In this document: positions 5,326 to 58,813 of the stretch, piece after piece
Layout of the letters: each line of letters begins with the position of its first letter
How positions within the stretch are numbered: position 1 is the stretch's first letter
DNA from: a virus
Direction: 5' to 3' (one strand)
IMG/VR virus record: IMGVR_UViG_3300032116_000025
DNA: 64,000 nt
Made by a program: the position numbers and the translations under genes
Notes under the pieces: model-generated
Told to the model about the DNA's origin: nothing
Seen by the model: the letters and a program-made list of their open reading frames with translations, nothing else
Database searches by the model: none

Positions 5326-5889
5326 ATGAACGAACTGTACAAAATCTGGCGATCATACACGATGGACAAAACCTGGTACGTACCGGGGTCGTGGGAGGCT
5401 CGCGCTCACGCAGTGCGTGTGTACTCGTGGGCCGTGCCCACAAACACCGCTATTCACGTTCTCACCCGGCAGCCAATCGTAGAGATTGGTGCAGGGACGG
5501 GATACTGGGCAAGACTTGTCCATGAGGCAGGCGGCGACGTCGTCGCCTACGACCCTGAGCCGTACCAGAACCGGTACGTCAGCGGAAAACACTTCCCCGT
5601 CCGCAAGGGCGGGACCAGGTCGGTAGCGCAACACGCCGATCGGGCACTCTTCATTTGCTGGCCGCCTTACAATGACGGAGTGGCCGCGCTTGCTCTCCGG
5701 ACATACCGGAGGGCAGGTGGAAAGAAGCTGTTCTACGTAGGTGAAGATAGGTACGGGTGCACCGCCAACAACCAGTTCTTCGACGAGTTGGAGAAGCACT
5801 GGTATTGCGGCGAATCGCTTTCCATCCCGAGATGGGATGGGATATACGATGGGTTCAACGTATACGACTTGGCTTCTACGGGCCGGTAG
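5326..5889 (+). CDS. class I SAM-dependent methyltransferase-fold protein
   Basis: motif I IVEIGAGTGYW, VVAYD, LFICWPPY. Confidence 0.7.
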   Translation: MNELYKIWRSYTMDKTWYVPGSWEARAHAVRVYSWAVPTNTAIHVLTRQPIVEIGAGTGYWARLVHEAGGDVVAYDPEPYQNRYVSGKHFPVRKGGTRSVAQHADRALFICWPPYNDGVAALALRTYRRAGGKKLFYVGEDRYGCTANNQFFDELEKHWYCGESLSIPRWDGIYDGFNVYDLASTGR

Positions 5890-5952
5890 CTCAACGGTGA
5901 GAGCCCCCGCCTTATAAGCGGGAGGTCACGGGTTCAACTCCCGTCCGGCCTA
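5880..5952 (+). tRNA. trnI: tRNA-Ile(UAU)
   Basis: cloverleaf GGGCCGG/CCGGCCT, anticodon arm CCCGC-CTTATAA-GCGGG, GGTTCAACTCC T-arm; no encoded CCA. Confidence 0.9.
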
Positions 5953-5953
5953 C

Positions 5954-28899: not shown

Positions 28900-29054
28900 G
28901 CTCCCACTCCTTCTTTGCGCATTTGGCGCAAAAAACAGCAGGCGGGAGCCAGTCATAGACTCGCACCCGCCTGCCGCAAACTGCACATTTGTACGTGCCG
29001 ATAAACTGCTTGGCTGTTTGTTTGCCCAGCGATCCCCCTAGTGATCTAGCAAAG

Positions 29055-29125
29055 CTCGGGGCCGTGGATTCGAACCACGATTCACGGATTCAAAGTCCGC
29101 TGTCCTGCCCTTAGACGAGCCCCGA
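29055..29125 (-). tRNA. trnQ: tRNA-Gln(UUG)
   Basis: TCGGGGC/GCCCCGA acceptor, GCGGA-CTTTGAA-TCCGT anticodon arm, GGTTCGAATCC. Confidence 0.92.
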
Positions 29126-39866: not shown

Positions 39867-39947
39867 GCCAATGCGGTGCCCAGCATAACACAGGCTTACG
39901 CCAAGCTAAAAGCCCAAGAAACCCGCTATTCCCCCTATAAGCTATTG

Positions 39948-40610
39948 ATGAGCACCAATGTCTCGCTCAACAGCGGTAACCCCGCCGGCGCGGAGCCGAA
40001 CTCCGCGATTGCCTGCATTGCGGGCATTTTCGTGCAGGTCTACGGTATTGCCGCCTCGAAGTTCGAGACGGCGTGTGTCGGAACGCGGGTAGCGTTCCCG
40101 ATGCAACAATTCGTCCAGGAGTTTGTCGCCCAGGCGGTGAACTCCTGGAAGGGCCCCGATCGGGCGCCCGGGCAGCACTTCATCCAGCTGAAGCTGAACG
40201 AGTACATGCTGGGGAAGTTCCTTAGCGGGGTCGGGCGCCGGACGACAGACCCAAAGGAATACTTCCCCGCTCTGTGGAGGGGAGAAGTGGTTCTGCTCGG
40301 CCGGCGAAAGCTGGCCGAACCCACCACTGGAGTGGCAGTGATCGTGTACACCCGCGAGGCGTACCTCAACGATCCACAGATCGACGAGGCGGGAAGGCGG
40401 TGGCTGGACCCGAGGACGACCCACGTCCTTGTGGACGTCCTCGCATTCTCGAACACGATCGGCTCCCCGCAGCTTAGCCCGCACCGCTTCGTGCGGAACA
40501 TGGCTGGCGGCAACAATACCCAGCTCACGGCAAGCGCCGACGAGCTTCGAGCAGAGGCTCAACTCGTGGCCGCGTACGATGCGAGCTACGTCACGGTCGG
40601 CGACGACTGA
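39948..40610 (+). CDS. DUF3228-like protein
   Basis: VIVYTREAY...P.SP.RF.RN.AGG resemblance; ATG 6 nt after CCTATAAG. Confidence 0.45.
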   Translation: MSTNVSLNSGNPAGAEPNSAIACIAGIFVQVYGIAASKFETACVGTRVAFPMQQFVQEFVAQAVNSWKGPDRAPGQHFIQLKLNEYMLGKFLSGVGRRTTDPKEYFPALWRGEVVLLGRRKLAEPTTGVAVIVYTREAYLNDPQIDEAGRRWLDPRTTHVLVDVLAFSNTIGSPQLSPHRFVRNMAGGNNTQLTASADELRAEAQLVAAYDASYVTVGDD

Positions 40611-40616
40611 CCACAC

Positions 40617-40660
40617 CGCCCGCTCCCCGGCTTCGGCCGGGTTGAGCGGGCGTTCTCTTG
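40617..40660 (+). terminator. bulged terminator hairpin, family copy 4
   Basis: CGCCCGCTC-CCCGGC-TTCG-GCCGGG-TT-GAGCGGGCG followed by TTCTCTTG. Confidence 0.75.
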
Positions 40661-40704
40661 CCTAGTAATACCGCGTTTTCCCCTATAAGCATGTGGAGGA
40701 AACT

Positions 40705-40845
40705 ATGCGACGAAACCGACGATTGGCTGACCTGGCGCGTGAGCGTCAGGCAGCGGAAGTTCGTGAGGAGGTCAAGCAAATCGCGCTTGGCCTCCTCGCG
40801 CTCGTAGGGCTGCTGGCCACATCGTGGCTAGCGGCGTTTATCTGA
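40705..40845 (+). CDS. 46-aa membrane-anchored microprotein (not in ORF track)
   Basis: CCTATAAG, GGAGG SD, MRRNRRLADLARERQAAEVREEVKQIALGLLALVGLLATSWLAAFI*, followed by a terminator. Confidence 0.7.
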   Translation: MRRNRRLADLARERQAAEVREEVKQIALGLLALVGLLATSWLAAFI

Positions 40846-40880
40846 AAGATGGGGAGCCTAACAGGCTCCCCATCTTTTTT
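40846..40880 (+). terminator. intrinsic terminator
   Basis: AAGATGGGGAGCCT-AAC-AGGCTCCCCATCTT followed by U-tract. Confidence 0.8.
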
Positions 40881-41211
40881 GCTTTGCTATCTGTATCCAG
40901 ACCTAGGTAAACCAAACGTATGAGTCGTTCAGAACGCGAGCGGTCCCTTCTTCGTCGGCTACTTGCTATTGCTGTTCACCGGCTTGGTGGGGAAATGCGG
41001 GTCACCAAAGAAGAGGTCTTTACCGGCACTTGGGAGCTGGGGATGGACCACGCAACTCTCCCAACAGTGGTTACCGGATTTCGTGTAGCTTCTAAAGATC
41101 GTGATACTCTGTAGATAGGCCGGTGAGCAGTTTCTGCTGCTTCCTGCTCTTTACCGACCCCGAAGCAGAGCAGCGTCAGGGGAAAGACGGCCACCCTTTA
41201 GGAGCGCACCT

Positions 41212-41400
41212 GTGAACGTCACACGCACCGTCTGGTACATCAGCTCAGACGAAACGGGAAAGCTGGGCCCGTTTTCTACTCAAGAGCAAGCCTACAGCGC
41301 GATCCGCAAAGATCTTTACGCAAGCACAGATCTAGCAAAGCGCCCATCTAACGTAGTCTTGTGGCCCGAGTACGTATCGAGCGCAGACCCAAAGGGATGA
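41212..41400 (+). CDS. small GYF_2-like motif protein
   Basis: WYISSDETGKLGPFSTQEQAY...VLWPE; AGGAG SD. Confidence 0.5.
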   Translation: MNVTRTVWYISSDETGKLGPFSTQEQAYSAIRKDLYASTDLAKRPSNVVLWPEYVSSADPKG

Positions 41401-41445
41401 AATAGCGCTCCTTTTTGCCTATCAGTAGGTAGAAAGGAACGCAAA

Positions 41446-41745
41446 ATGTGCATCCTAAACGATAGCGAGAAGGCCGCGGTATCCGCCGCGGTCACCACCA
41501 TCCTGGAGAAGGGTCTGCCCTTCACGGGTCAGTCGGTCACGCACGAGTTGCGTGACCGGGGCGTCAACCTCCCTCACAGGGAGATTTCCTCGTACACGCG
41601 GGAGATCTTCAACGGCGGAAAGATGCCTGGGTGGGCTTCCACCCAGGTCGTCCCGGGCCTTGGCCCGGTGATGTACTTCCCGGTCCCGCCGCGTAGCGCG
41701 GCGGGGATGGCGGCGGCGAAGCTTCGAAAGAAGCTGGTCCCGTGA
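41446..41745 (+). CDS. small putative winged-helix protein
   Basis: promoter motif at 41418; FTGQSVTHELR. Confidence 0.5.
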   Translation: MCILNDSEKAAVSAAVTTILEKGLPFTGQSVTHELRDRGVNLPHREISSYTREIFNGGKMPGWASTQVVPGLGPVMYFPVPPRSAAGMAAAKLRKKLVP

Positions 41746-42479
41746 AGGACGGTAAGCGGCGGAGGGCGAAAGCCCTCCGCCTGCCGGACGTCCCTGCTTT
41801 CCAGCAGGCGGCGTCCATCCCGGTTAAGGGCCAAAAGCCCCTAACCCAATTGGCTGACCTGGCGCGTGAGCGTCAGGCAAAGGGGCAGGAGGACATGCGT
41901 GAGGTGCGCAGGCACCTTGAGCGCTCCTGCAAAGAGTCGGGACGGCAGAACACCTACGGCGGGGTGTTCTACAGCTACACAGTGTTGAAGCCGAAAGAGC
42001 TTCGGCACAAGGACAACACGCGGACCCTGTGGCACGGTACCGCCCTCGGCAATCTCACGAACATCCTAATACACGGATTTAGGCCTTCGTACGGAGGGCT
42101 TATGGGTCCGGGCGTCTACTTCGGTGGACGCCAGAAAGCCGAGGCATACTCAAGGGCCCCCCTCGGAGCGCTGCTCCGATGCGAGGTGGCCCTGGGCCGA
42201 ACAGCGGATGCCGTTCCCTCGTGGGAGGACGCGCGCCCGCCGTACGACACCCTACACGGCGTGCCCGGCCAGACGCGCACGTATGGATCGTCCACCCTTC
42301 TTAACGAAGAATGGGCGGTCCTTGACCCTGCCCGAATCTCCATTCACGAAATTCGGGTGTTCACTGCAAATCGAGGCGAGTGTGTCCGATGCGGACGCCT
42401 TGTCAGCGATGAGCACCTTCAGTCGAGGTGGTCACCGCGCCACAAAGACTTCATCAGGCTTTGTGGCCACTGTCTGTGA
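41742..42479 (+). CDS. PARP-like (H-Y-E) ADP-ribosyltransferase with C-terminal Zn finger
   Basis: LWHGT...ILIHGF...MGPGVYF...AEAYS...LLRCEVALGR...YD...NEEWAV; CVRC...CGHC. Confidence 0.85.
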   Translation: MKDGKRRRAKALRLPDVPAFQQAASIPVKGQKPLTQLADLARERQAKGQEDMREVRRHLERSCKESGRQNTYGGVFYSYTVLKPKELRHKDNTRTLWHGTALGNLTNILIHGFRPSYGGLMGPGVYFGGRQKAEAYSRAPLGALLRCEVALGRTADAVPSWEDARPPYDTLHGVPGQTRTYGSSTLLNEEWAVLDPARISIHEIRVFTANRGECVRCGRLVSDEHLQSRWSPRHKDFIRLCGHCL

Positions 42480-42484
42480 GTAAT

Positions 42485-42522
42485 GCGGCCTCCCCATAAC
42501 GGGTTGAGGCCGCTTTACTTTT
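42485..42522 (+). terminator. bulged terminator hairpin, family copy 5
   Basis: GCGGCCTC-CCC-ATAAC-GGG-TT-GAGGCCGC followed by TTTACTTTTG. Confidence 0.7.
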
Positions 42523-42575
42523 GCTCCCAAAATATGCGCCGTTTCTCGTATAAGATATTGCGGCTCAACTTACCT

Positions 42576-42647
42576 GCCCCCTTAGCTCAGCGGTAGAGCA
42601 ACGGTTTTGTAAACCGTAGGTCGTCGGTTCAATCCCGACAGGGGGCT
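42576..42647 (+). tRNA. trnT: tRNA-Thr(UGU)
   Basis: cloverleaf, ACGGT-TTTGTAA-ACCGT. Confidence 0.95.
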
Positions 42648-42650
42648 CAC

Positions 42651-42731
42651 GCGGGAATGGCGGAATGGCAGACGCACCAGACTTAGGATCTGGCGCCGAA
42701 AGGTGTGGGGGTTCAAATCCCCCTTCCCGCA
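42651..42731 (+). tRNA. trnL: tRNA-Leu(UAG)
   Basis: CCAGA-CTTAGGA-TCTGG, long variable arm. Confidence 0.95.
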
Positions 42732-42735
42732 CAAA

Positions 42736-42809
42736 CGGGGTGTAGCACAGCCTGGTAGTGCGCCAGCTTTGGGAGCTGGAAGTCGCAGGTTCAAATCCTG
42801 TCGCCCCGA
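42736..42809 (+). tRNA. trnP: tRNA-Pro(UGG)
   Basis: CGGGGTG acceptor, CCAGC-TTTGGGA-GCTGG. Confidence 0.95.
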
Positions 42810-42823
42810 CTAAGGAGGTACGA

Positions 42824-43324
42824 ATGAAAAAGGTAATGGCCGCTCTCATGATGGCCTACGCCTCTACCGCAGAGGCCCAAGACCCCTACGAACTAGGCCG
42901 CCGTGATCCTGCTCTGCTACTGGGCCAAGCTCTAGTAGCAGAAGCAGGATGGCGGTTTCACGCAGATCATCTTGCAATACCCTGGGTTATTTCTCGCCGG
43001 GCAACCCTTCCGGCATTTCGCCGAGCGTCAAACCCAGAGGTCGCAGCGTTGATTGCTTACGTCTCAGCGTTAAAGTGCGCCGATCCCGCTCGTCGGTGCG
43101 ACTCTGAACGGCGTCGCCGGATGCGATCTATAACTTGGGGGATGCTTGACTCCCTTGCCCCGAAGATTGCGCGCGTTGCCCGTGATTGGTTCGGGGGTCG
43201 TCGTCATCCAGACCCCTGCCCAGACGCCTGGCACTGGGGCAGTGGGTTGCGCCGTTCGTCTCAGTTGGTTGTGCAGTGCGGGCACACGACTAACACGTTT
43301 CTTGGCAGACCCGTCTACCCGTAA
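42824..43324 (+). CDS. secreted SleB/cell-wall-hydrolase-like protein
   Basis: TAAGGAGGT SD, signal peptide MKKVMAALMMAYASTAEA, LGQALVAEAGW...AI.WVI.RR. Confidence 0.55.
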   Translation: MKKVMAALMMAYASTAEAQDPYELGRRDPALLLGQALVAEAGWRFHADHLAIPWVISRRATLPAFRRASNPEVAALIAYVSALKCADPARRCDSERRRRMRSITWGMLDSLAPKIARVARDWFGGRRHPDPCPDAWHWGSGLRRSSQLVVQCGHTTNTFLGRPVYP

Positions 43325-43344
43325 ACCGCCACACAAGGAACAGA

Positions 43345-43896
43345 ATGCCTAACTGGTGCAGCAACCACGGATTCATCAAGCTTCCAACCAACGCTTCTCC
43401 AGAGGCTGTTGCGGCGTTTAGGGCGCTAAGCAAGGTCGAGGATGACAAAGATGAGTGGTTCGCTAAGGTGCTCCCGTGCCCCCCTGAAGCGGACTGGTAC
43501 GAATGGCGGATCCGCCGTTACGGAACAAAATGGGACGTAACCCCCTCGCTTGCCGTAACGGACGACCAGATCAACTTCTCGTTTGAGTCGGCGTGGGCTC
43601 CGCCGCTAGAGTTTTTCAAGCATCTCGCGGAGACCTACGGCCTTCACTACCAGATTCAGTACTCAGAGCCGGGCTGCTGCTTCGGCGGTACCGCGTCCTA
43701 CGACGGGGATTTTCAAGACAAGTACGTTGAAAACGAGGAGTACCTCGTCGCGGCGGTGGATGAGTTTGGCGAGCCGATAGAGTCGGTCCTGTGCGTCGAA
43801 TCGTACGAGTCCTTCGACGCTTTCTGTAAGGCTCACAAAATTGATAGCCCAAGGCTCAAAGACTTGGTACGAGATTATTACCGCGACCACAACTAG
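43345..43896 (+). CDS. DUF1281/YubB ferredoxin-like domain protein
   Basis: MPNWCSN, WYEWR...GTKWD, FESAWAPP, YSEPG..FGG. Confidence 0.85.
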   Translation: MPNWCSNHGFIKLPTNASPEAVAAFRALSKVEDDKDEWFAKVLPCPPEADWYEWRIRRYGTKWDVTPSLAVTDDQINFSFESAWAPPLEFFKHLAETYGLHYQIQYSEPGCCFGGTASYDGDFQDKYVENEEYLVAAVDEFGEPIESVLCVESYESFDAFCKAHKIDSPRLKDLVRDYYRDHN

Positions 43897-43902
43897 TGGT
43901 CG

Positions 43903-43987
43903 GGAGGAGTGGCCGAGTGGTCTAAGGCAGCGGTTTTGAAAACCGCCGTGGGGCAACCCACCAGGGGTTCGAATCCCTTCTCCTCCG
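43903..43987 (+). tRNA. trnS: tRNA-Ser(UGA)
   Basis: GCGGT-TTTGAAA-ACCGC, long variable arm. Confidence 0.95.
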
Positions 43988-43989
43988 CT

Positions 43990-44188
43990 CGTGCCCGCCA
44001 ACCACGGGCTAGTGAGGGTGGAATACCTCATGAAGAAGCGGGGTGGTTCCCGTACGTTAGATAGCCCCGGACCCCGGAGGGGTCGGAGGCGTACAGCCCG
44101 TAAGCGGTTCTGGCTGGAGGTCGTTTGGCTGGAGGCGAAAGCCGATGAAAGTCGAGTAGCCGACGAAGGTCAACCGTACTGTACGAAC
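43990..44188 (+). ncRNA. unidentified structured RNA 1 between tRNA-Ser and tRNA-Val
   Basis: multiple nested helices and GNRA loops; no credible ORF. Confidence 0.6.
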
Positions 44189-44189
44189 T

Positions 44190-44261
44190 GCGGGAATAGC
44201 TCAGGGGTAGAGCGCCTCCTTTACACGGAGGAAGTCGGGGGTTCGAAACCCTCTTCCCGTA
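44190..44261 (+). tRNA. trnV: tRNA-Val(UAC)
   Basis: CCTCC-TTTACAC-GGAGG. Confidence 0.95.
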
Positions 44262-44265
44262 CTAA

Positions 44266-44351
44266 GCGAGCGTGGCGAAATCGGCATACGCAGCGGATTT
44301 AAAATCCGCGGGGCCGCAAGGCTCGTGAGGGTTCAAACCCCTCCGCTCGCA
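44266..44351 (+). tRNA. trnL: tRNA-Leu(UAA)
   Basis: GCGGA-TTTAAAA-TCCGC, long variable arm. Confidence 0.95.
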
Positions 44352-44354
44352 CTG

Positions 44355-44526
44355 TTAGTCCCGGTGAGGTGAGATCGGTCTCTCAGGAGACTAGGGCACC
44401 GGGATGGTAGTCAGATGAGCAACGTCGCTGTTGACCACGCGAAAGCGTACGAGGCGCGCCAAGTCGTCTGGCGAAAGGCACACCGGAAGGTGGCAAAGCC
44501 CAAGCCGTGGATATGCTGCACGGCAT
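44355..44526 (+). ncRNA. unidentified structured RNA 2 between tRNA-Leu and tRNA-Lys
   Basis: TCCCGGTG/CACCGGGA, GTCAGATGA/TCGTCTGGC, ACGC-GAAA-GCGT, CACC-GGAA-GGTG, GCCGTG/CACGGC. Confidence 0.6.
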
Positions 44527-44528
44527 TA

Positions 44529-44600
44529 GGGATCGTAGATCAGTGGTAGATCAGCGGGCTTTTAACCCGTAGGTCGTGGGTTCGATCCCCACCGGTCCCA
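44529..44600 (+). tRNA. trnK: tRNA-Lys(UUU)
   Basis: GCGGG-CTTTTAA-CCCGT. Confidence 0.93.
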
Positions 44601-44604
44601 CTTC

Positions 44605-44675
44605 TCGGGGTTCGTCTAAGGGCAGGACATCGGCCTTTGAAGCCGCGAATGATGGTTCGATTCCATCACCCCGAA
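44605..44675 (+). tRNA. trnQ: tRNA-Gln(UUG), second copy
   Basis: CGGC-CTTTGAA-GCCG; 5' half nearly identical to the 29055 copy. Confidence 0.88.
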
Positions 44676-44689
44676 TCAGGTTACCACCT

Positions 44690-44727
44690 AACGCGCACTA
44701 GCCCCTCCCTAGTGCGCGTTTCTTTTG
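44690..44727 (+). terminator. intrinsic terminator ending the tRNA operon
   Basis: AACGCGCACTAG/CTAGTGCGCGTT followed by TCTTTT. Confidence 0.8.
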
Positions 44728-44772
44728 CCCAAAATTTAAGGGGTTTCCGCCTATAAGAAGATAGGAGGAAAC

Positions 44773-44967
44773 ATGCACCACAACGAGTTCAAGTGCGATA
44801 CCTGTGGGTCCGAGATGAGCCTCGTTTTGTACGGGGCAGGCAACTGCCCCGGCTGCCCGGGAGATATGTCATGCGCGCTCGAGGCGCGCTGCGACCGGTG
44901 CAACCCGCCGCCACCGCCGAAGCCGCGGTACGTGCCGCCGCCGGAGCCCCCCACCGATTACTGGTGA
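44773..44967 (+). CDS. small Cys-rich, poly-Pro protein
   Basis: promoter motif at 44750, AGGAGG SD, three CxxC pairs. Confidence 0.6.
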   Translation: MHHNEFKCDTCGSEMSLVLYGAGNCPGCPGDMSCALEARCDRCNPPPPPKPRYVPPPEPPTDYW

Positions 44968-44975
44968 GGGGCCGC

Positions 44976-45016
44976 GCGCCCTGCTCCCCGAAAGGGTTGA
45001 GCGGGGCGTTTCTTTT
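44976..45016 (+). terminator. bulged terminator hairpin, family copy 6
   Basis: CGCCCTGCTC-CCC-GAAA-GGG-TT-GAGCGGGGCG followed by TTTCTTTTG. Confidence 0.75.
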
Positions 45017-45052
45017 GCCAATACGGCCTATAAGCAGACGAAGGAGGGTTGA

Positions 45053-45235
45053 GTGTCTGCCCTAAAGAACTACTACAAAGCGTGTACCCGCGCGGCAATC
45101 GCAGTCGAAAACAATGACAAGGCTGAAGAGCTGGCGGCGCTGGAGCTGGTAAAAACTACGTGGAGTGAGTTACAGAAGGAGGATCCCAGACTCGCGAAGT
45201 TCCTCACGCAAACTGGGATTGACCCGCCAAAGTAA
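45053..45235 (+). CDS. hypothetical protein
   Basis: promoter motif at 45027, AAGGAGG SD. Confidence 0.55.
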   Translation: MSALKNYYKACTRAAIAVENNDKAEELAALELVKTTWSELQKEDPRLAKFLTQTGIDPPK

Positions 45236-45236
45236 A

Positions 45237-45273
45237 ATAGGGCTGGACACATCGTGTCCAGCCCTATCTTTTT
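45237..45273 (+). terminator. terminator at the convergence of the plus-strand and virion modules
   Basis: ATAGGGCTGGACAC-ATC-GTGTCCAGCCCTAT followed by CTTTTT. Confidence 0.8.
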
Positions 45274-45285
45274 GCCTAGGTAAGC

Positions 45286-46025: not shown

Positions 46026-46343
46026 TCAGCCCTTCACATCTTGAAGAAATGCGTCAACGGTACGCTGACCGGCGAGCATCATTTCCGCCAGCTTCATGCT
46101 TACTTTGTGCTCGCGCAGCTTCTCTTCTGCGCGCTCCCGCTTGCTGCGGGCAATCTCCTCGACAACCTCTCGCGGAGACCGCCCGCCAGCCACAAAGTCC
46201 ATGCCCGACTCCTTGCTTTGCAGCTCGGCACGCTCTGAGGCTTCCTCGTCCTGACGGCTGCGGTGCTCTGTAAGCTCCACAACAAGGGCGTCGTCTAGCG
46301 CCTGAGCGTGCTGGCTGTACTTGAAGTCGTCCATGGTGCTCAC
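46026..46343 (-). CDS. hypothetical protein between sheath and tube
   Basis: GTGA-coupled to the sheath gene. Confidence 0.55.
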   Translation of the reverse strand: MSTMDDFKYSQHAQALDDALVVELTEHRSRQDEEASERAELQSKESGMDFVAGGRSPREVVEEIARSKRERAEEKLREHKVSMKLAEMMLAGQRTVDAFLQDVKG

Positions 46344-49300
46344 ACCACCAGAGTAACCTGGATGTAGTTAAGCGGGTAGAAGACGCCCACAGTGACGTCG
46401 ATCTCAAGCCGCGTGGGATCAGTCGCGTTCTGGCGAATCGCGTTGATCTCAAACGACTCAAAGACGCTCAGGCGGATGAGGAAGTTCCGCAACCCCTCCA
46501 TCGTGGTGGTAATCGCGTCCTGTACCGAGGTGGTGATGTTGAACCGCCCGATAAAGTTGCGAAGCGAGGCGCGAATCAGCTTGGAGGCAAAGTCGAGCGC
46601 CGTGGTGATCGAGAACTCGCGCTTCTCAACGGTGCTCATGTCGGTTGTGAGCTGGTGGCGGGTCCGAACAGGCTGGCCATCGGCCTCCTGGTAGAACACC
46701 CACAGACCACTGCCAGACAGGATCTTGAGTTGCGCCTCGGAGTAACGGTCCTGGCTACCCACGACGCCGGTGAACCCGACAAGCGTGGACTCCGTCATGG
46801 GCTCCTGCGGAAGCTTGGCGCTTGTCTTACCAGCCAACGCGCAGGACAGGTAGTAGCCGTCGATAAGCGTCTCTAGCCCGTCCAAGGTCGCCTTGGCCTG
46901 GGCAGGAGCAGTTGCGATCACGCGACGGTCACGATAGCCGAGGGCCAGCTCGCCGTAAGCAACCGCCTCTTCGGTGCGGTTAGCGATGAGCGCACCACGA
47001 ATCTTGACCGTGAATGGACGGTCAACAATCGAGGCGGTGAACACAGGGCTACCGGGAGCGTAGTAGAACCCGTCATCGTTGCCCGCCGTAAGCGGGCCGT
47101 CGTTGATTGTTACCTGGCCGCCGGATACCGACTGAACCAGGTACTTGTTGGTGTCATCCTCGAACTCCAGGTAGACGGGAACGTCTACCGTGGACGCGGG
47201 GTTGTACGGACCCGGGTAGCCTAGGGCAGCCAGGAGAGCCTGTAGGTTGGCGATGCCAGTCTCGACTACGTTTGACGTCGGGGCAGCAGTTACGTTGCCA
47301 AGGGGGCCGCTCGCGACAAGCGTAGAAGACTTACGCGTCGGGCGGCTGGGGTTGAGCATGAGCACGCGCTCAAGCCCGTTAGCCGGGAGGCTCATCTCGT
47401 CTACGTGAACCTGTCCGACAAGGCCCACCTCACCCGAGTGGGTGAGGGGTGCGATGGCGTACACGTCCTTAGACTCGATGAACTCAAACGCGCGGGTATA
47501 CGCGTCGAGGGTGCCCTCGGGCTCCGTGGTTGACGTGTCGTCGACGCCCACGCCGGTAACCTCTAGCCCAGGGGCGTTGAGGATGGCGAAGTACATGCCC
47601 AGACCCAGCGGATTCTGGGTGTCGATGGGAGATAGCTGCGCCTCAAGGTCGGCCACACTGCCGATTCGAAGGAGGTTGAAGTCCTCCGTCGCGGGGCTCA
47701 CGTCCTTACGGAGCGCGGTGTACCCTAGGTAGATCGCTAGCGGACCTGCTACCGTGGGAGTTCCGCCAGAATCGCGGAAGATGTTGTGCTTGACCCGAAC
47801 CGTGCCCGAGTCGGTGTCAATGTACAGGTCCGAGCTGGGGCGAGTCGTGGTCCAGAGGTCGTTGTCCAGGCCCTTGGCGACGACGTACCAGCTTGTTCCC
47901 GTGTAGGTGAGCAGCTGCTCCGCCGAGATACGCAGACGGTTGGAGACGCCCGTGGGAATCTCGGTAACCTGACCCAAGCGGATGCCGTCTACCCACACCT
48001 CGTCGCCCACAGCCGGGGCGAACGCGGTACCGTAAACAGCCGAGGTGCCCGTAGACGCAGCCGCGCCGAATGGGCCACCAAGACCCGTTAGGCCGACGGT
48101 GGAGAGCATCGTGGCGTCAGAGGCGTCCTTGTCGATAAGGATGACGCTTTCCTTGCCCCGGATGGTTACGCCACCCGTAGACGAGACGCTACGAAGAACC
48201 AGCTGGTTATCAAACGTAGAGATAGACGCTACGTTTGCTCCCCAAAGCGTGTTGATGGCCGCAACAAGGGTCGCGCCCGAAACAACCGATGTGGGCATAA
48301 CAAGCTGCTGCCAGTAGTCGCCGTCAAGCGACATGCGCAGAACCTTGCCCTGAACGTCGGTAGCCCAGGTAGCTACGGATGTTAGGTCGACAACCCCTAG
48401 CGCACGCGCAAAGCCCGGCTTTGGGCCGCCGTACAGGCTGGGAAGTAGCCCGATGACGCCAAAGCCGATCGAGCTTCCGCCGGTAACAGGACCAATCTGG
48501 ATGCTACCAGCACAGGTAGCGCCAGGCGCGGTGCTGCTGGTGATAACCGGGCGGTTGCTTGCGTTAAGGACTGCTGTTGCGCCCGTTAACCCAGCGTTTA
48601 GCTGCGAAATAGCTCCCGCAGCGTCTACCGGGTTGGCAAACGTGATGTTATTGAGAACACCGTCGACGTATACTTCAAGCGTAAACGTGCCAAAGTCGGC
48701 GGGGTAAGTAAGCGTAGTCCAGTCCACGGTGCCCGTGACGCTGGCATTGCGAGCCTGGAACTCCGCTCCGGTAAACTGAAGGTACGGAGAAAGGTTGTCG
48801 CCGTCACCGTCGTTGATGACCGACACCGCGGTTCCGGCGCCGTCAAGGAAGGTCTCGGTCTTGAGCGCCTCCCGCACGTTCCCGGCACCGTTGTTGATGA
48901 ACACGCGGACCGTAGCGTAGTCAATCGTAAGATCGCTAAGGTTGCTACGGGGGTCCGGGTAGTCCGAAAGCTGCGGCTCAAACGAGAAGAAGTTGGTGTA
49001 CCCCAGACGACCTACCGCCTTGTACCCGGGCAGTAGGTTGAAGCCTGTACCGGGCCACGCCGTAGCGAGGAGAGCCGCCGAGGTCGTCGTCCCAACCGCA
49101 ATGGTGGCATTCTCGCCCTTCGCAGTTGTGCGAAGAACGACGCGGGAGCTACCACCGCTCTCCTCTACCTCTGCAAGGAGGCCGGTGATCTCCTCGTCGT
49201 TGATAGCTTGGGCTACCTGGGCAGGAGTCTTGTTTGCAGGCAGCGCCGCAAACGTAATCCCTACTTCAGCAGCGTTATCTACGCTGAGCCTCAGCGTGGT

Positions 49301-49531
49301 TCCGCCGATGCCCGTGTAGGTAGCGCCGACAAACCCAAACGCGAGCCGCGCCGGAAGGGTGACCTGAGCTTCCGAGTTCAGAGTGCCGTCGTCAAGGACA
49401 GCCTCAATGACCTGGAAGCAGGGTCCCATGACGCAGGCCGGGAGCGTGGGAACAAGGATCTGGGGAGAGGTCGTCCGGAACTCCTGGATGACCTGAACTC
49501 CGGGCCTTTCGATCGTGGGCGGACTTGCCAT
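46340..49531 (-). CDS. contractile tail sheath protein
   Basis: N-terminal RPGVQVIQEF; C-terminal RHQLTTD....REFSI...DF...IR..LRNFIGR.NIT...P.NYI.VTL. Confidence 0.85.
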   Translation of the reverse strand: MASPPTIERPGVQVIQEFRTTSPQILVPTLPACVMGPCFQVIEAVLDDGTLNSEAQVTLPARLAFGFVGATYTGIGGTTLRLSVDNAAEVGITFAALPANKTPAQVAQAINDEEITGLLAEVEESGGSSRVVLRTTAKGENATIAVGTTTSAALLATAWPGTGFNLLPGYKAVGRLGYTNFFSFEPQLSDYPDPRSNLSDLTIDYATVRVFINNGAGNVREALKTETFLDGAGTAVSVINDGDGDNLSPYLQFTGAEFQARNASVTGTVDWTTLTYPADFGTFTLEVYVDGVLNNITFANPVDAAGAISQLNAGLTGATAVLNASNRPVITSSTAPGATCAGSIQIGPVTGGSSIGFGVIGLLPSLYGGPKPGFARALGVVDLTSVATWATDVQGKVLRMSLDGDYWQQLVMPTSVVSGATLVAAINTLWGANVASISTFDNQLVLRSVSSTGGVTIRGKESVILIDKDASDATMLSTVGLTGLGGPFGAAASTGTSAVYGTAFAPAVGDEVWVDGIRLGQVTEIPTGVSNRLRISAEQLLTYTGTSWYVVAKGLDNDLWTTTRPSSDLYIDTDSGTVRVKHNIFRDSGGTPTVAGPLAIYLGYTALRKDVSPATEDFNLLRIGSVADLEAQLSPIDTQNPLGLGMYFAILNAPGLEVTGVGVDDTSTTEPEGTLDAYTRAFEFIESKDVYAIAPLTHSGEVGLVGQVHVDEMSLPANGLERVLMLNPSRPTRKSSTLVASGPLGNVTAAPTSNVVETGIANLQALLAALGYPGPYNPASTVDVPVYLEFEDDTNKYLVQSVSGGQVTINDGPLTAGNDDGFYYAPGSPVFTASIVDRPFTVKIRGALIANRTEEAVAYGELALGYRDRRVIATAPAQAKATLDGLETLIDGYYLSCALAGKTSAKLPQEPMTESTLVGFTGVVGSQDRYSEAQLKILSGSGLWVFYQEADGQPVRTRHQLTTDMSTVEKREFSITTALDFASKLIRASLRNFIGRFNITTSVQDAITTTMEGLRNFLIRLSVFESFEINAIRQNATDPTRLEIDVTVGVFYPLNYIQVTLVV

Positions 49532-56483: not shown

Positions 56484-56990
56484 TTAGTAGAATCCGATGG
56501 CCGACAGCGCGTAGTAGTCCGAGTGTACACCGCTTGGACTGGCGTCCATAATCCCCTCTACGTTCAACGACGTTTTTACGAGTCGCTTTTGCTGCTCGTA
56601 GGCGCTCTGAAACAATCCCAGCATGGACTGGATGATGGGCGCCTTGTCGTTGATGGATACGCTCAGCCCACCATCCGAAAATGGAAGGTGGTTCCTTGCG
56701 TAGAAGATCATCAGACTTTGCATCAAGCTGATGACAGTTCCCCGGACGCAGAAGCTCTGGAGATTTAGAGAAAACAGATCATCCAGAGAGTAGTTTGTCA
56801 GGTACGGGGTGCCATTAAAGTCGCTTAAAAAGTCTACGGTAGCCCAGGCAACCATGCGGTCTGAGCTTTCCTCCCCACGAATGAGGAGGTTAAGCTCAGA
56901 GAAATCGCGGGTGAACAGCCGAACGCTCTGAATGTGCGCGTTAAACGCGTCAGAGCTTGACTGCCCTAATGGCTGTAGCTGGGTAGGCAC
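56484..56990 (-). CDS. head-tail adaptor/neck protein
   Basis: position after the MCP; VRLF.RD..ELN.L...S...DFN...RNHL.FSDGG.SV. Confidence 0.55.
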   Translation of the reverse strand: MPTQLQPLGQSSSDAFNAHIQSVRLFTRDFSELNLLIRGEESSDRMVAWATVDFLSDFNGTPYLTNYSLDDLFSLNLQSFCVRGTVISLMQSLMIFYARNHLPFSDGGLSVSINDKAPIIQSMLGLFQSAYEQQKRLVKTSLNVEGIMDASPSGVHSDYYALSAIGFY

Positions 56991-57700: not shown

Positions 57701-58813
57701 TCAGAAGCTGACAACCTGCGGGTAGAACTGGCGGTTGCCCGCACGGTTGTTCTGCGCGCCCAGGTTCTCCTCGCTCACCGGCGTAACCGAGGCAAGGATC
57801 GCGTTCGCGTTCGTCGTCGGGTTCGCGTCGCCGGAGTACAGCTCCAGCTTACGAACCGAGGCGATGTTCACGATCGACATGCCAACATCCTTCCAAGCGA
57901 CAAACTTGATGATGTTGATGACCTTGTCGATGTAGAACTTGACCTGGTTGAGCACGTAGAAGCGCCCCAGGAAGTCCGGCGAGGTGAAGCAGTACACGTT
58001 GCCCGGGCGAAGGATGTCCGTCTTGATGGTACGGACATAGCGCTTGCCAAGAAGCAGGTTGTACTTGTAGCCGTTGACGACCGTCTCCGACTGGATCTTG
58101 TCGCCCTGGTCCTCGACGGTCCACTGAAGGATGTCGTTCCAGTCCTGCGACGTCATAAGGATCATGTCCGACTCTAGGCGGTTGCCGTCGAGCAGCTTCA
58201 TGAGCCGAACCACGTCGGGGCGCTGGATAGGACGAACAACCGCGTCGTTCGTGGCCGCGATACGAGCAAGCTCGCCCTTCGTGACCGAGAACTCCACGAC
58301 CGAACCCGCGCCGATGGTGGCCGCGTTGAGCGCCGTAGCGACGCCACCGTTGGCCTCCGTCTGGAGGGCCTGAACCGCGCTCTCGATGTGAATCGTGAAC
58401 TCGCGGTCCTGGATCTCGCCCAGGTCACGGACGGCGTTCTGCTCGATGACCTTCCCGATTGGGAAGGCGTAAGCAAGGAACTCCTGCTCCGGCTTCTGGA
58501 ACATCTCCGACATGATCGTGATGAAGGGAACCTCCACCTTCTCACCCCGGATGAAGTTCGCACGCGGCTCGCCACGGAACGTGACAACCATCGCGCGGCT
58601 GCGCGGCTCAAGGTACTCGATCTTCACGAGCGCGTCGTGATTGGTCGAGACCTGACACTGCGAGCGGTCGACGTTCTCGGGCGGCAGAACCCGCTCAACG
58701 AACGACGCCTCACGAAGGCGGTCCCGAATGTACCCACCGAAACGGGCAGCAATCTTGCTCTTTGCACCCGGATCGGAGAGCTGGCTGAGTAGCATCTCCT
58801 TGGCGTTCGACAT
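57701..58813 (-). CDS. major capsid protein (HK97 fold)
   Basis: 370 aa, strongly biased codons, strong SD, downstream of protease/scaffold/decoration genes; YIRDRLRE.SF..RVLPP...EIQDREF. Confidence 0.8.
   Translation of the reverse strand: MSNAKEMLLSQLSDPGAKSKIAARFGGYIRDRLREASFVERVLPPENVDRSQCQVSTNHDALVKIEYLEPRSRAMVVTFRGEPRANFIRGEKVEVPFITIMSEMFQKPEQEFLAYAFPIGKVIEQNAVRDLGEIQDREFTIHIESAVQALQTEANGGVATALNAATIGAGSVVEFSVTKGELARIAATNDAVVRPIQRPDVVRLMKLLDGNRLESDMILMTSQDWNDILQWTVEDQGDKIQSETVVNGYKYNLLLGKRYVRTIKTDILRPGNVYCFTSPDFLGRFYVLNQVKFYIDKVINIIKFVAWKDVGMSIVNIASVRKLELYSGDANPTTNANAILASVTPVSEENLGAQNNRAGNRQFYPQVVSF

What the first reader, a model, noticed from the sequence alone, without database searches (positions are those of the whole stretch)
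43990..44188. Unidentified ~200-nt multibranched RNA between tRNA-Ser and tRNA-Val
Seen: the other tRNA-tRNA spacers are 3-4 nt, but this one is about 200 nt and folds extensively. Hairpins: GCCCG/CGGGC, TGAGG-GTGGAATA-CCTCA (T-loop-like) and GACCCC/GGGGTC. A nested domain is closed by CGTACAG/CTGTACG and contains GGT..TGGCT/GGTCA.ACC, TCGTTTGGCT/AGCCGACGA and twin GAAA-capped stems (GGC-GAAA-GCC, GAT-GAAA-GTC). No SD-led ORF is present. Established: phage tRNA arrays host structured ncRNAs such as GOLLD, and flanking tRNA processing can release them. Inference: a ncRNA I cannot assign to a known family, matured by tRNA excision.
Basis: partly seen in the sequence, partly recalled or inferred. 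Interest (0 to 1): 0.78.

Follow-up and report, generated by a model that had tools for sequence, protein, structure and literature searches.

The report
Orphan spacer in phage tRNA operon
A 202-base non-coding gap between two tRNA genes of a freshwater phage is real and matches no known RNA family. It folds no better than the rest of the genome and has no relatives anywhere I could search, so it is more likely an ordinary transcribed spacer than a new RNA machine.

Summary
The gap (43988-44189) between tRNA-Ser(UGA) and tRNA-Val(UAC) is real.

The evidence for a structured RNA gene does not hold up:
- The fold has z about -1.5 to -1.8 against dinucleotide shuffles. 22% of arbitrary 201-nt windows of the same genome do as well.
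- The best sub-domain is a 98-nt four-way junction (44004-44101, z -3.3). That value is matched in 22-26% of random 202-nt genome segments.

No homologue exists in 50,697 phage records, in exact-pattern scans of IMG/VR, JGI metagenomes and GTDB genomes, or in about 30 related phages. These relatives carry entirely different content in this hypervariable island and no tRNA array. All recovered copies of this phage are identical here, so covariation cannot be tested.

Most likely (about 0.5) this is a lineage-specific internal transcribed spacer. It would be co-transcribed with the tRNAs and cut out as a by-product by RNase Z and RNase P.

A lineage-specific stable small RNA remains possible (about 0.28).

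The scan flagged this same stretch in an overlapping window. It also flagged similar tRNA-array spacers in other phages, where conserved RNAs were found. Here none was.

The parts
42547..42554 (+). Promoter-like motif (CGTATAAG, a variant of the recurrent CCTATAAG), about 22 nt upstream of tRNA-Thr. Presumed start of the tRNA operon.
   Evidence: CCTATAAG occurs 8 times in the window against 0.79 expected. The TATAAG contexts, each after a terminator hairpin, are listed.
43903..43987 (+). tRNA-Ser(UGA). No encoded CCA: discriminator G43987 is followed by CUC.
   Evidence: ARAGORN; Rfam tRNA 59.4 bits; 3' context.
43988..44189 (+). The 202-nt non-coding spacer (the finding).
   Evidence: No Rfam match at E<=10. 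No called gene.
43989..43994 (+). 5' strand of the predicted terminal helix, pairing with 44181-44186 (p >= 0.9). It leaves 1 nt and 3 nt to the flanking tRNAs.
   Evidence: Base-pair probabilities.
44004..44101 (+). Best-defined predicted sub-domain. A 7-bp stem (44004-10 with 44095-101) closes three hairpins: 44012-31, 44038-53 and 44064-90.
   Evidence: Pair probabilities 0.8-1.0. z -3.3, 0 of 300 shuffles. This is matched in 22-26% of random 202-nt genome segments. A covariance model of it finds nothing in relatives.
44012..44031 (+). 44007-44019 is 12/13 identical to the variable-arm/T-arm junction of tRNA-Leu(UAA) at 44320-44332.
   Evidence: Repeat D4. Local alignment to tRNA-Leu(UAA) gives p = 0.023 uncorrected and 0.19 after taking the best of 10 tRNAs.
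44038..44055 (+). Hairpin 2. Its 3' strand plus 2 nt (44047-44055) is identical to the last 9 nt of tRNA-Val, i.e. acceptor 3' strand, discriminator and C (44254-44262).
   Evidence: Repeat D9. About 0.5 such exact 9-mers are expected by chance (my estimate).
44102..44180 (+). Poorly defined 3' half. It holds a 10-nt direct repeat (44111-20 and 44126-35) and the two 3-bp GAAA-capped hairpins (44134-53).
   Evidence: z -0.6 for 44102-44189 and -1.4 for 44090-44185. Repeat D7. Only the 44134-36/44141-43 stem reaches p > 0.5 here (0.55-0.56), and nothing reaches 0.6.
44190..44261 (+). tRNA-Val(UAC). Its RNase P site defines the 3' end of the spacer.
   Evidence: ARAGORN; Rfam tRNA 67 bits.
44690..44720 (+). 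Intrinsic terminator ending the tRNA operon.
   Evidence: 12-bp stem followed by a T-run.

Best explanation
The stretch is a lineage-specific internal transcribed spacer of a phage tRNA operon, not a conserved RNA gene.

How it would work:
- The operon is read from a phage promoter-like motif just upstream of tRNA-Thr to the terminator after tRNA-Gln.
- It carries eight tRNAs, two protein genes and two long gaps.
- None of the tRNAs encodes CCA. The host's RNase Z-type enzyme would therefore cut after the tRNA-Ser discriminator (43987), and RNase P would cut before G44190 of tRNA-Val (inferred from established tRNA processing).
- This releases a fragment of about 202 nt as a by-product, which is then probably degraded.

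Its G+C-rich sequence forms hairpins as any such sequence does. It may be debris of array rearrangement: two of its hairpins faintly echo pieces of the neighbouring tRNA-Leu and tRNA-Val.

Shown: position, non-coding status, absence of known-family matches, absence of homologues, and unexceptional folding energy. Inferred: co-transcription, the cleavage sites, and the lack of a sequence-specific function.
For: (1) No Rfam family matches at gathering score or at E<=10 on the isolated stretch.

(2) Folding energy is unexceptional. z is -1.78 or -1.47. The genome background has a mean of -0.92, and 22% of windows do as well. The best 98-nt sub-window is matched in 22-26% of random segments.

(3) No homologue was found by any search:
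- BLASTN (word size 11) against 50,697 phage records;
- exact 19-22-mers and tRNA-anchored gap patterns in IMG/VR, JGI metagenomes and GTDB genomes;
- nhmmer, tblastx and a covariance model over about 0.7 Mb of related loci and four whole related genomes.

(4) The island 39867-45285 is hypervariable.
- The relative closest in the flanking 239-aa gene (92% aa) carries different genes there, as do relatives at 85% major-capsid identity.
- None of the relatives examined has a tRNA array.

(5) The gap holds no promoter or terminator of its own.

(6) There are faint echoes of neighbouring tRNAs.
Against: - Phage genomes are compact, and two gaps of about 200 nt are kept inside an otherwise tight array with 3-4-nt junctions.
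- The 5' half forms a well-defined 98-nt four-way junction whose z (-3.3) equals that of the real tRNAs beside it.
- The ends of the gap pair with each other with p >= 0.9, as expected of a stable excised RNA.
- In other phages, gaps of this kind have turned out to hold conserved small RNAs. One example is T4 RNAC/RNAD (PMC3014915); others are in earlier notes of this scan.
- Absence of homologues is weak evidence. The large collections could only be searched by exact words, and every recovered copy of this phage is identical here. Purifying selection could therefore not be measured.
- The tRNA-remnant similarity is not significant after correction (p 0.19).
Confidence: 0.5

Rival explanations
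1. A lineage-specific stable small RNA gene. The excised fragment, or its 98-nt four-way-junction domain at 44004-44101, would accumulate because its ends are paired. It would act in trans, for example as a decoy or sponge for a host RNA-binding protein or tRNA-directed nuclease, or as a base-pairing regulator.
For: - The sub-domain is well defined, with pair probabilities 0.8-1.0 and z -3.3, like the flanking tRNAs.
- A terminal helix at p >= 0.9 closes the gap.
- There is precedent for small RNAs in phage tRNA regions (T4 RNAC/RNAD, PMC3014915; GOLLD/ROOL near tRNAs, PMC5737381).
- A curated ncRNA motif, CyVA-1, sits in the same island.
Against: - The sub-domain's boundaries were chosen after folding. 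With a fair sliding-window control, 22-26% of random segments do as well.
- The whole gap is not better than background.
- No homologue, no covariation and no partner protein were found. TROVE/Ro60 is absent.
- The best antisense match in the phage genome is 14 nt at E about 0.1.
Confidence: 0.28
2. A cis-acting element of the operon. Mutually exclusive pairings would tune processing, decay or read-through for the four downstream tRNAs. CGGGC at 44005-09 can pair either with GCCCG at 43993-97 or with GCCCG at 44096-100.
For: - Two copies of GCCCG compete for one CGGGC.
- The terminal helix would bring tRNA-Ser and tRNA-Val to an effective distance of 4 nt, like the other junctions.
Against: - The alternative hairpin has negligible weight in the predicted ensemble.
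- No ligand-binding or known leader motif matches.
- There is no conservation to support a switch.
Confidence: 0.1
3. A DNA-level feature. It could be the scar of an inserted or rearranged segment, or a protein-binding site. Candidate features are the 10-nt direct repeat 15 nt apart and four GTAC sites.
For: - There is an exact 10-nt direct repeat at 44111-20 and 44126-35.
- GTAC occurs 4 times. Only 1.3% of genome windows have 4 or more.
- The island is a hot spot of gene turnover bounded by terminator-promoter cassettes.
Against: - The repeat word is not enriched elsewhere in the window.
- The terminal inverted repeat is only 6 bp and imperfect.
- There is no target-site duplication and no second copy in the genome.
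Confidence: 0.07
4. A small protein translated from ATG 44030, a basic, Arg-rich N-terminus behind a GAGGG.
For: An ATG with a GAGGG 11 nt upstream opens a frame of about 90 codons.
Against: - The frame has no stop before it crosses all of tRNA-Val and enters tRNA-Leu, so RNase P cleavage would truncate the message.
- No gene caller called it in any public copy.
- No protein among 5.8 billion shares words with it.
Confidence: 0.03
5. An HDV-like (theta-type) self-cleaving ribozyme in the 3' half, with P1 starting at 44081/44082 and P2 formed by the reader's CGTACAG/CTGTACG helix.
For: A loose nested double-pseudoknot descriptor can be satisfied there, with a C at the start of J4/2.
Against: - The same descriptor fires 0.6 times per 200 nt across the genome.
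- The site is 94 nt from the tRNA-Ser 3' end. Theta ribozymes cleave within 5 nt of it (PMC10879173).
- P1 overlaps the very stable hairpin 3.
- No Rfam HDV-like model matches at E<=10.
Confidence: 0.02

Closest known systems
[quoted passage not shown]
   Same: A non-coding, tRNA-flanked stretch inside a phage tRNA cluster. It would be released by the same end-processing that matures the tRNAs.
   Different: BLASTN of the gap against 50,697 phage records found no similarity to any record. Stable accumulation is shown for T4 and unknown here. The array here is unique to one phage lineage.
Internal transcribed spacers of bacterial tRNA and rRNA operons
   Same: Co-transcribed, removed by RNase P and 3' endonucleases, poorly conserved in sequence, and with ends that often pair.
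   Different: This gap is unusually long for this array, whose other junctions are 3-4 nt. Nothing shows that it carries processing signals.
GOLLD (RF01998) and ROOL (RF03087), large RNAs often near tRNAs in phages and prophages (PMC5737381)
   Same: Genomic neighbourhood: phage, next to tRNAs.
   Different: Those RNAs are several hundred nucleotides long and widely conserved with covariation. No covariance-model match was found here.
Theta (minimal HDV-like) ribozymes next to phage tRNAs (PMC10879173)
   Same: A non-coding element immediately downstream of a CCA-less phage tRNA.
   Different: The theta cleavage site lies within 5 nt of the tRNA 3' end. Here only a chance-level HDV-like topology can be drawn, 94 nt away.
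Bacterial and phage Y RNAs (YrlA/YrlB, RF02553) with Ro60
   Same: Paired 5' and 3' ends plus a tRNA-sized multi-helix module, in a location among phage tRNAs.
   Different: No TROVE/Ro60 gene in the genome, no model match, and no tRNA-like D or T loops recognised.

Membership tests
Any Rfam 15 family (including GOLLD, ROOL, tmRNA, YrlA, HDV-like, hammerhead, 6S, tRNA) | Covariance-model score at or above the family's gathering threshold | tested here: not met
   No match in 43988-44189 at gathering thresholds, at E<=10 in an 851-nt stretch, or at E<=10 on the 208-nt stretch alone.
Structured non-coding RNA (generic) | Folding energy clearly below dinucleotide shuffles and below the genomic background | tested here: not met
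   z is -1.78 or -1.47. 22% of genome windows are as low. The best 98-nt sub-window, z -3.0 to -3.3, is matched in 22-26% of random segments.
Structured non-coding RNA (generic) | Covariation (compensatory changes) across homologues | not testable with these tools
   No homologue was found. All public copies are 100% identical across 43345-44800, or as far as each contig reaches.
Theta / HDV-like ribozyme | Cleavage site (G1 of P1) within about 5 nt of the tRNA 3' end | tested here: not met
   The descriptor scan finds no candidate near 43987. The only candidates start at 44081/44082. The criterion is taken from PMC10879173.
Theta / HDV-like ribozyme | Nested double pseudoknot (P1, P1.1, P2, P3, P4) with a catalytic C in J4/2 | tested here: inconclusive
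   A loose version can be drawn from 44082 to 44185. The same descriptor hits 0.6 times per 200 nt genome-wide, or 0.13 with G1 and a G.U wobble required.
Y RNA (YrlA/YrlB) with Ro60 | A Ro60/TROVE protein partner encoded in the genome | tested here: not met
   PF05731 gave no match at E<=1 in the 160.7-kb record, while the Deinococcus and Bacteroides controls ring.
tRNA or tRNA pseudogene | Cloverleaf recognised by ARAGORN or the Rfam tRNA model | tested here: not met
   Nothing was found in the gap with ARAGORN at default, -ps, -ps80 or -ps60, or with the Rfam tRNA model at E<=10.
tRNA or tRNA pseudogene | Residual sequence similarity to tRNAs | tested here: inconclusive
   12/13 match to the T-arm junction of tRNA-Leu(UAA), and an exact 9-mer equal to the 3' end of tRNA-Val. 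The best local alignment has p 0.023 uncorrected and 0.19 corrected.
T4 RNAC/RNAD-type small RNA of a phage tRNA region | Lies between tRNA genes in one transcription unit | tested here: met
   tRNA-Ser and tRNA-Val abut the gap. Promoter-like motif at 42547-42554, terminator at 44690-44720, and none in between.
T4 RNAC/RNAD-type small RNA of a phage tRNA region | Accumulates as a discrete stable RNA | not testable with these tools
No expression data were available.

The most novel reading that the evidence does not exclude
The gap encodes an orphan, phage-lineage-specific stable RNA. Its core would be the 98-nt four-way junction at 44004-44101, cut out ready-made by the host's tRNA-processing enzymes. 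It would act as a decoy or competitor for a host factor that recognises tRNA-like shapes, for example a tRNA-directed defence nuclease. That would fit an array made only of U34 tRNAs.
Probability: 0.15. Interest if true: 0.5.

Novelty: new member of a known kind. Interest (0 to 1): 0.17.

Why it matters
If this is an ordinary spacer, it shows that hand-drawn hairpins in G+C-rich phage DNA are not evidence. This genome's coding regions fold as well or better. It also shows that phage tRNA arrays can sit in fast-turnover islands where comparative tests are impossible. If a discrete RNA does accumulate, it would add one more orphan small RNA to the poorly understood set made from phage tRNA operons, such as T4 RNAC/RNAD. 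It would also be worth testing against tRNA-targeting host defences.

Tried and rejected
- **Known RNA family:** rejected. Rfam gave nothing, even at E<=10.
- **tmRNA-like RNA:** rejected. ARAGORN -m and the Rfam tmRNA models gave nothing.
- **Y RNA with Ro60:** no TROVE gene.
- **Hammerhead:** a CCGAUGA...GAA arrangement at 44143-44168 looks similar by eye. It has C instead of the invariant U4, two extra A before stem II, and no model match (my reading).
- **Group II intron domain V:** resemblance of the GAU-GAAA-GUC hairpin only. There is no 14-bp helix and no Rfam hit.
- **Theta/HDV-like ribozyme:** chance-level.
- **Decayed tRNA:** not significant.
- **Paralogue elsewhere in the genome, or relation to the second gap:** none.
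- **Antisense target in the phage genome:** the best match is 14 nt at E about 0.1.
- **Metagenome hits to a 20-mer of the twin-GAAA region:** six soil contigs matched. The match lies inside a 422-aa ORF, has no flank similarity and no Rfam hit, so it is chance.
- **Orthologous arrays:**
  - tRNA-anchored gap patterns for Ser-gap-Val and Val-Leu found nothing.
  - A tRNA-Ser 3' 22-mer found five unrelated contigs.
- **Relatives reached through flanking proteins (DUF1281_C, the 239-aa gene) and the major capsid protein:** none carries the array. The only relative of the upstream gene (53% aa, L064) ends inside tRNA-Ser.
- **Population variation:** all copies are identical in the gap.

Full report
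**Setting**

The window is bases 85491-149490 of a 160,725-bp IMG/VR virus record (57.4% G+C). It has a myovirus-like head and tail module, with a major head protein at 57701-58813 and a 1063-aa sheath at 46340-49531. The exact phage recurs in many freshwater metagenome assemblies.

ARAGORN and Rfam agree on ten tRNAs, eight of them in one cluster:
- Thr, Leu(UAG) and Pro at 42576-42810.
- Two protein genes: 166 aa at 42824-43324, and 183 aa with a DUF1281_C domain at 43345-43896.
- tRNA-Ser(UGA) at 43903-43987.
- The 202-nt gap at 43988-44189.
- tRNA-Val(UAC) and tRNA-Leu(UAA) to 44352.
- A second gap of 176 nt at 44353-44528.
- tRNA-Lys and tRNA-Gln to 44675.
- A strong intrinsic terminator at 44690-44720.

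A phage-specific promoter-like word, CCTATAAG, occurs 8 times in the window against 0.79 expected. It always follows a terminator hairpin. The variant CGTATAAG sits about 22 nt upstream of tRNA-Thr. Neither gap holds this word or a terminator. The gap is therefore internal to one transcript on the + strand (inference).

None of the tRNAs encodes CCA, and the phage has no CCA-adding enzyme. From established tRNA processing, an RNase Z-type cut after G43987 and an RNase P cut before G44190 would release the gap as a fragment of about 202 nt.

**The observation**

The question is whether this is more than a 61% G+C sequence gives by chance. It is not.
- The whole gap has MFE -80.8/-81.0 kcal/mol against shuffle means of -73.1/-73.7. 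That gives z -1.78 (11/200) or z -1.47 (21/300).
- The opposite strand gives z -1.63, and the second gap z -1.87.
- Among 54 arbitrary 201-nt windows of the same genome, mostly coding, the mean z is -0.92. 22% reach -1.78 or lower, and several reach -4 to -6.
That is 8.5 kcal/mol above the MFE, equal to the shuffle mean, and about 5e-7 of the ensemble.
- The nested 3' domain with the twin GAAA caps has z -1.4.

**What the ensemble does predict**

Two things are predicted with high probability:
- A 6-bp helix joining the two ends of the gap (43989-94 with 44181-86).
- A 98-nt four-way junction at 44004-44101. A 7-bp stem closes three hairpins.

Taken alone this domain has z -3.3 (0 of 300 shuffles). 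That is the same as the real tRNA-Ser and tRNA-Leu beside it. But its borders were chosen after folding. I therefore slid a 98-nt window over 23 random 202-nt segments of the genome. 22-26% of them contained a window with z <= -3.0 to -3.3. This is a lead, not evidence.

**Known families**

No Rfam 15 model matches the gap at gathering thresholds, at E<=10 in an 851-nt stretch, or at E<=10 on the 208 nt alone. I tested leads from earlier notes of this scan and from the literature.
- Ro60/Y RNA: no TROVE gene.
- tmRNA-like: nothing from ARAGORN or Rfam.
- tRNA remnant: nothing from ARAGORN even at 60% thresholds.
  - Short echoes of neighbours exist. One is 12/13 nt of the tRNA-Leu(UAA) T-arm junction. 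The other is the last 9 nt of tRNA-Val.
  - These are not significant after correction (p 0.19).
- Theta ribozyme:
  - The published definition puts the cleavage site within 5 nt of the tRNA end (PMC10879173).
  - My loose HDV-like descriptor finds nothing there. Its only candidates start at 44081/44082.
  - That is at a genome-wide false-hit rate of 0.6 per 200 nt.

**Homologues**

I found none.
- BLASTN (word size 11) against 50,697 phage records hits only the flanking tRNAs. With the gap alone it gives five chance-level matches at E 2 to 8.
- Exact words from three parts of the gap, and tRNA-anchored gapped patterns, gave nothing in IMG/VR or GTDB genomes.
- A 20-mer hit six soil metagenome contigs. 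The match lies inside a 422-aa ORF and is a chance match.
- The translated open frame has no protein relative.

The flanking proteins opened a large family of related phages.
- This includes the closest relative, at 92% identity in the adjacent 239-aa gene. It also includes whole genomes at 85% capsid identity.
- In all of them the interval between the InPase-type polyprotein gene and the 239-aa gene holds entirely different genes and no tRNA array.
- nhmmer, tblastx and a covariance model of the 98-nt domain found nothing in these loci. The covariance model also found nothing in four whole related genomes.
- All public copies of the phage itself are identical across the array. Rare SNPs occur only in neighbouring genes.

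Covariation, the decisive test, is therefore unavailable.

**Reading**

The most economical explanation (about 0.5) is an ordinary, lineage-specific internal transcribed spacer in a recently assembled tRNA island. It would be excised as a by-product and may be built from debris of rearrangements.

A stable lineage-specific small RNA (about 0.28) is the main rival. It rests on the compactness of phage genomes, the well-defined 5' domain, the paired ends, and precedent. That precedent is T4 RNAC/RNAD (PMC3014915) and GOLLD/ROOL near tRNAs (PMC5737381).

The minor rivals are:
- a cis-acting switch using the competing GCCCG/CGGGC/GCCCG strands (0.10);
- a DNA-level scar or binding site (0.07);
- a small protein (0.03);
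- an HDV-like ribozyme (0.02).

**Verdict**

The gap is real and unassigned. Interest is low unless expression data show a discrete product.

Noticed in passing
window 41117-41193 (+): A CyVA-1 RNA (RF02965) match above the gathering score (47.7 against 41.4 bits). It lies between two small ORFs in the same variable island, 2.8 kb upstream of the finding.
   Followed up: no
window 44353-44528 (+): A second long gap (176 nt) between tRNA-Leu(UAA) and tRNA-Lys, with the same status as the finding. z is -1.87, and it has no Rfam match and no homologue. At an 80% threshold ARAGORN draws a poor tRNA-Asn-like cloverleaf at about 44400-44468, with mismatches and no T-loop consensus.
   Followed up: partly
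window 33881, 34366, 34827, 39934, 40682, 44750, 45027 (+), 13366 (-); variant at 42547: The word CCTATAAG occurs 8 times against 0.79 expected. In most + strand copies it follows a terminator hairpin and a TTGCC box and lies 10-30 nt before a start codon. These terminator-promoter cassettes bracket the small genes of the island and probably drive its module shuffling.
   Followed up: partly
window 39867-45285, compared with L076, L077, L078, L085-L108: The interval between the InPase-type polyprotein gene and the conserved 239-aa gene is a hypervariable island. Every relative examined carries different genes there. The closest one (L078) has a 124-aa RRM-domain protein. Only this phage has the tRNA array.
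   Followed up: yes
window 5880-5953, 29054-29125, 42576-44675: All ten phage tRNAs have U at anticodon position 34 (UAU, UUG x2, UGU, UAG, UGG, UGA, UAC, UAA, UUU). None encodes CCA, and the phage has no CCA-adding enzyme.
   Followed up: partly
window 41511-41711 and 56511-56711; genome 34001-34201 (outside the window): These 201-nt windows fold far better than shuffles, with z -4.3, -5.6 and -6.2 (the first has MFE -111 kcal/mol). That is much stronger than the finding. The first lies inside the 99-aa ORF upstream of the PARP-like gene.
   Followed up: no
window 41742-42479 (+) and 43345-43896 (+): A PARP-type ADP-ribosyltransferase domain protein (PF00644, E 1.3e-9) lies just upstream of the tRNA operon. 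A DUF1281_C (Api92-like ferredoxin-fold) protein is encoded inside it.
   Followed up: no
L058-L063 (public contigs of the same phage): Six independent assemblies break between 43953 and 44593, that is inside tRNA-Ser, the gaps or tRNA-Lys. This is probably because tRNA words are shared with other genomes in the samples. A strain-level difference downstream of tRNA-Ser is not excluded.
   Followed up: partly
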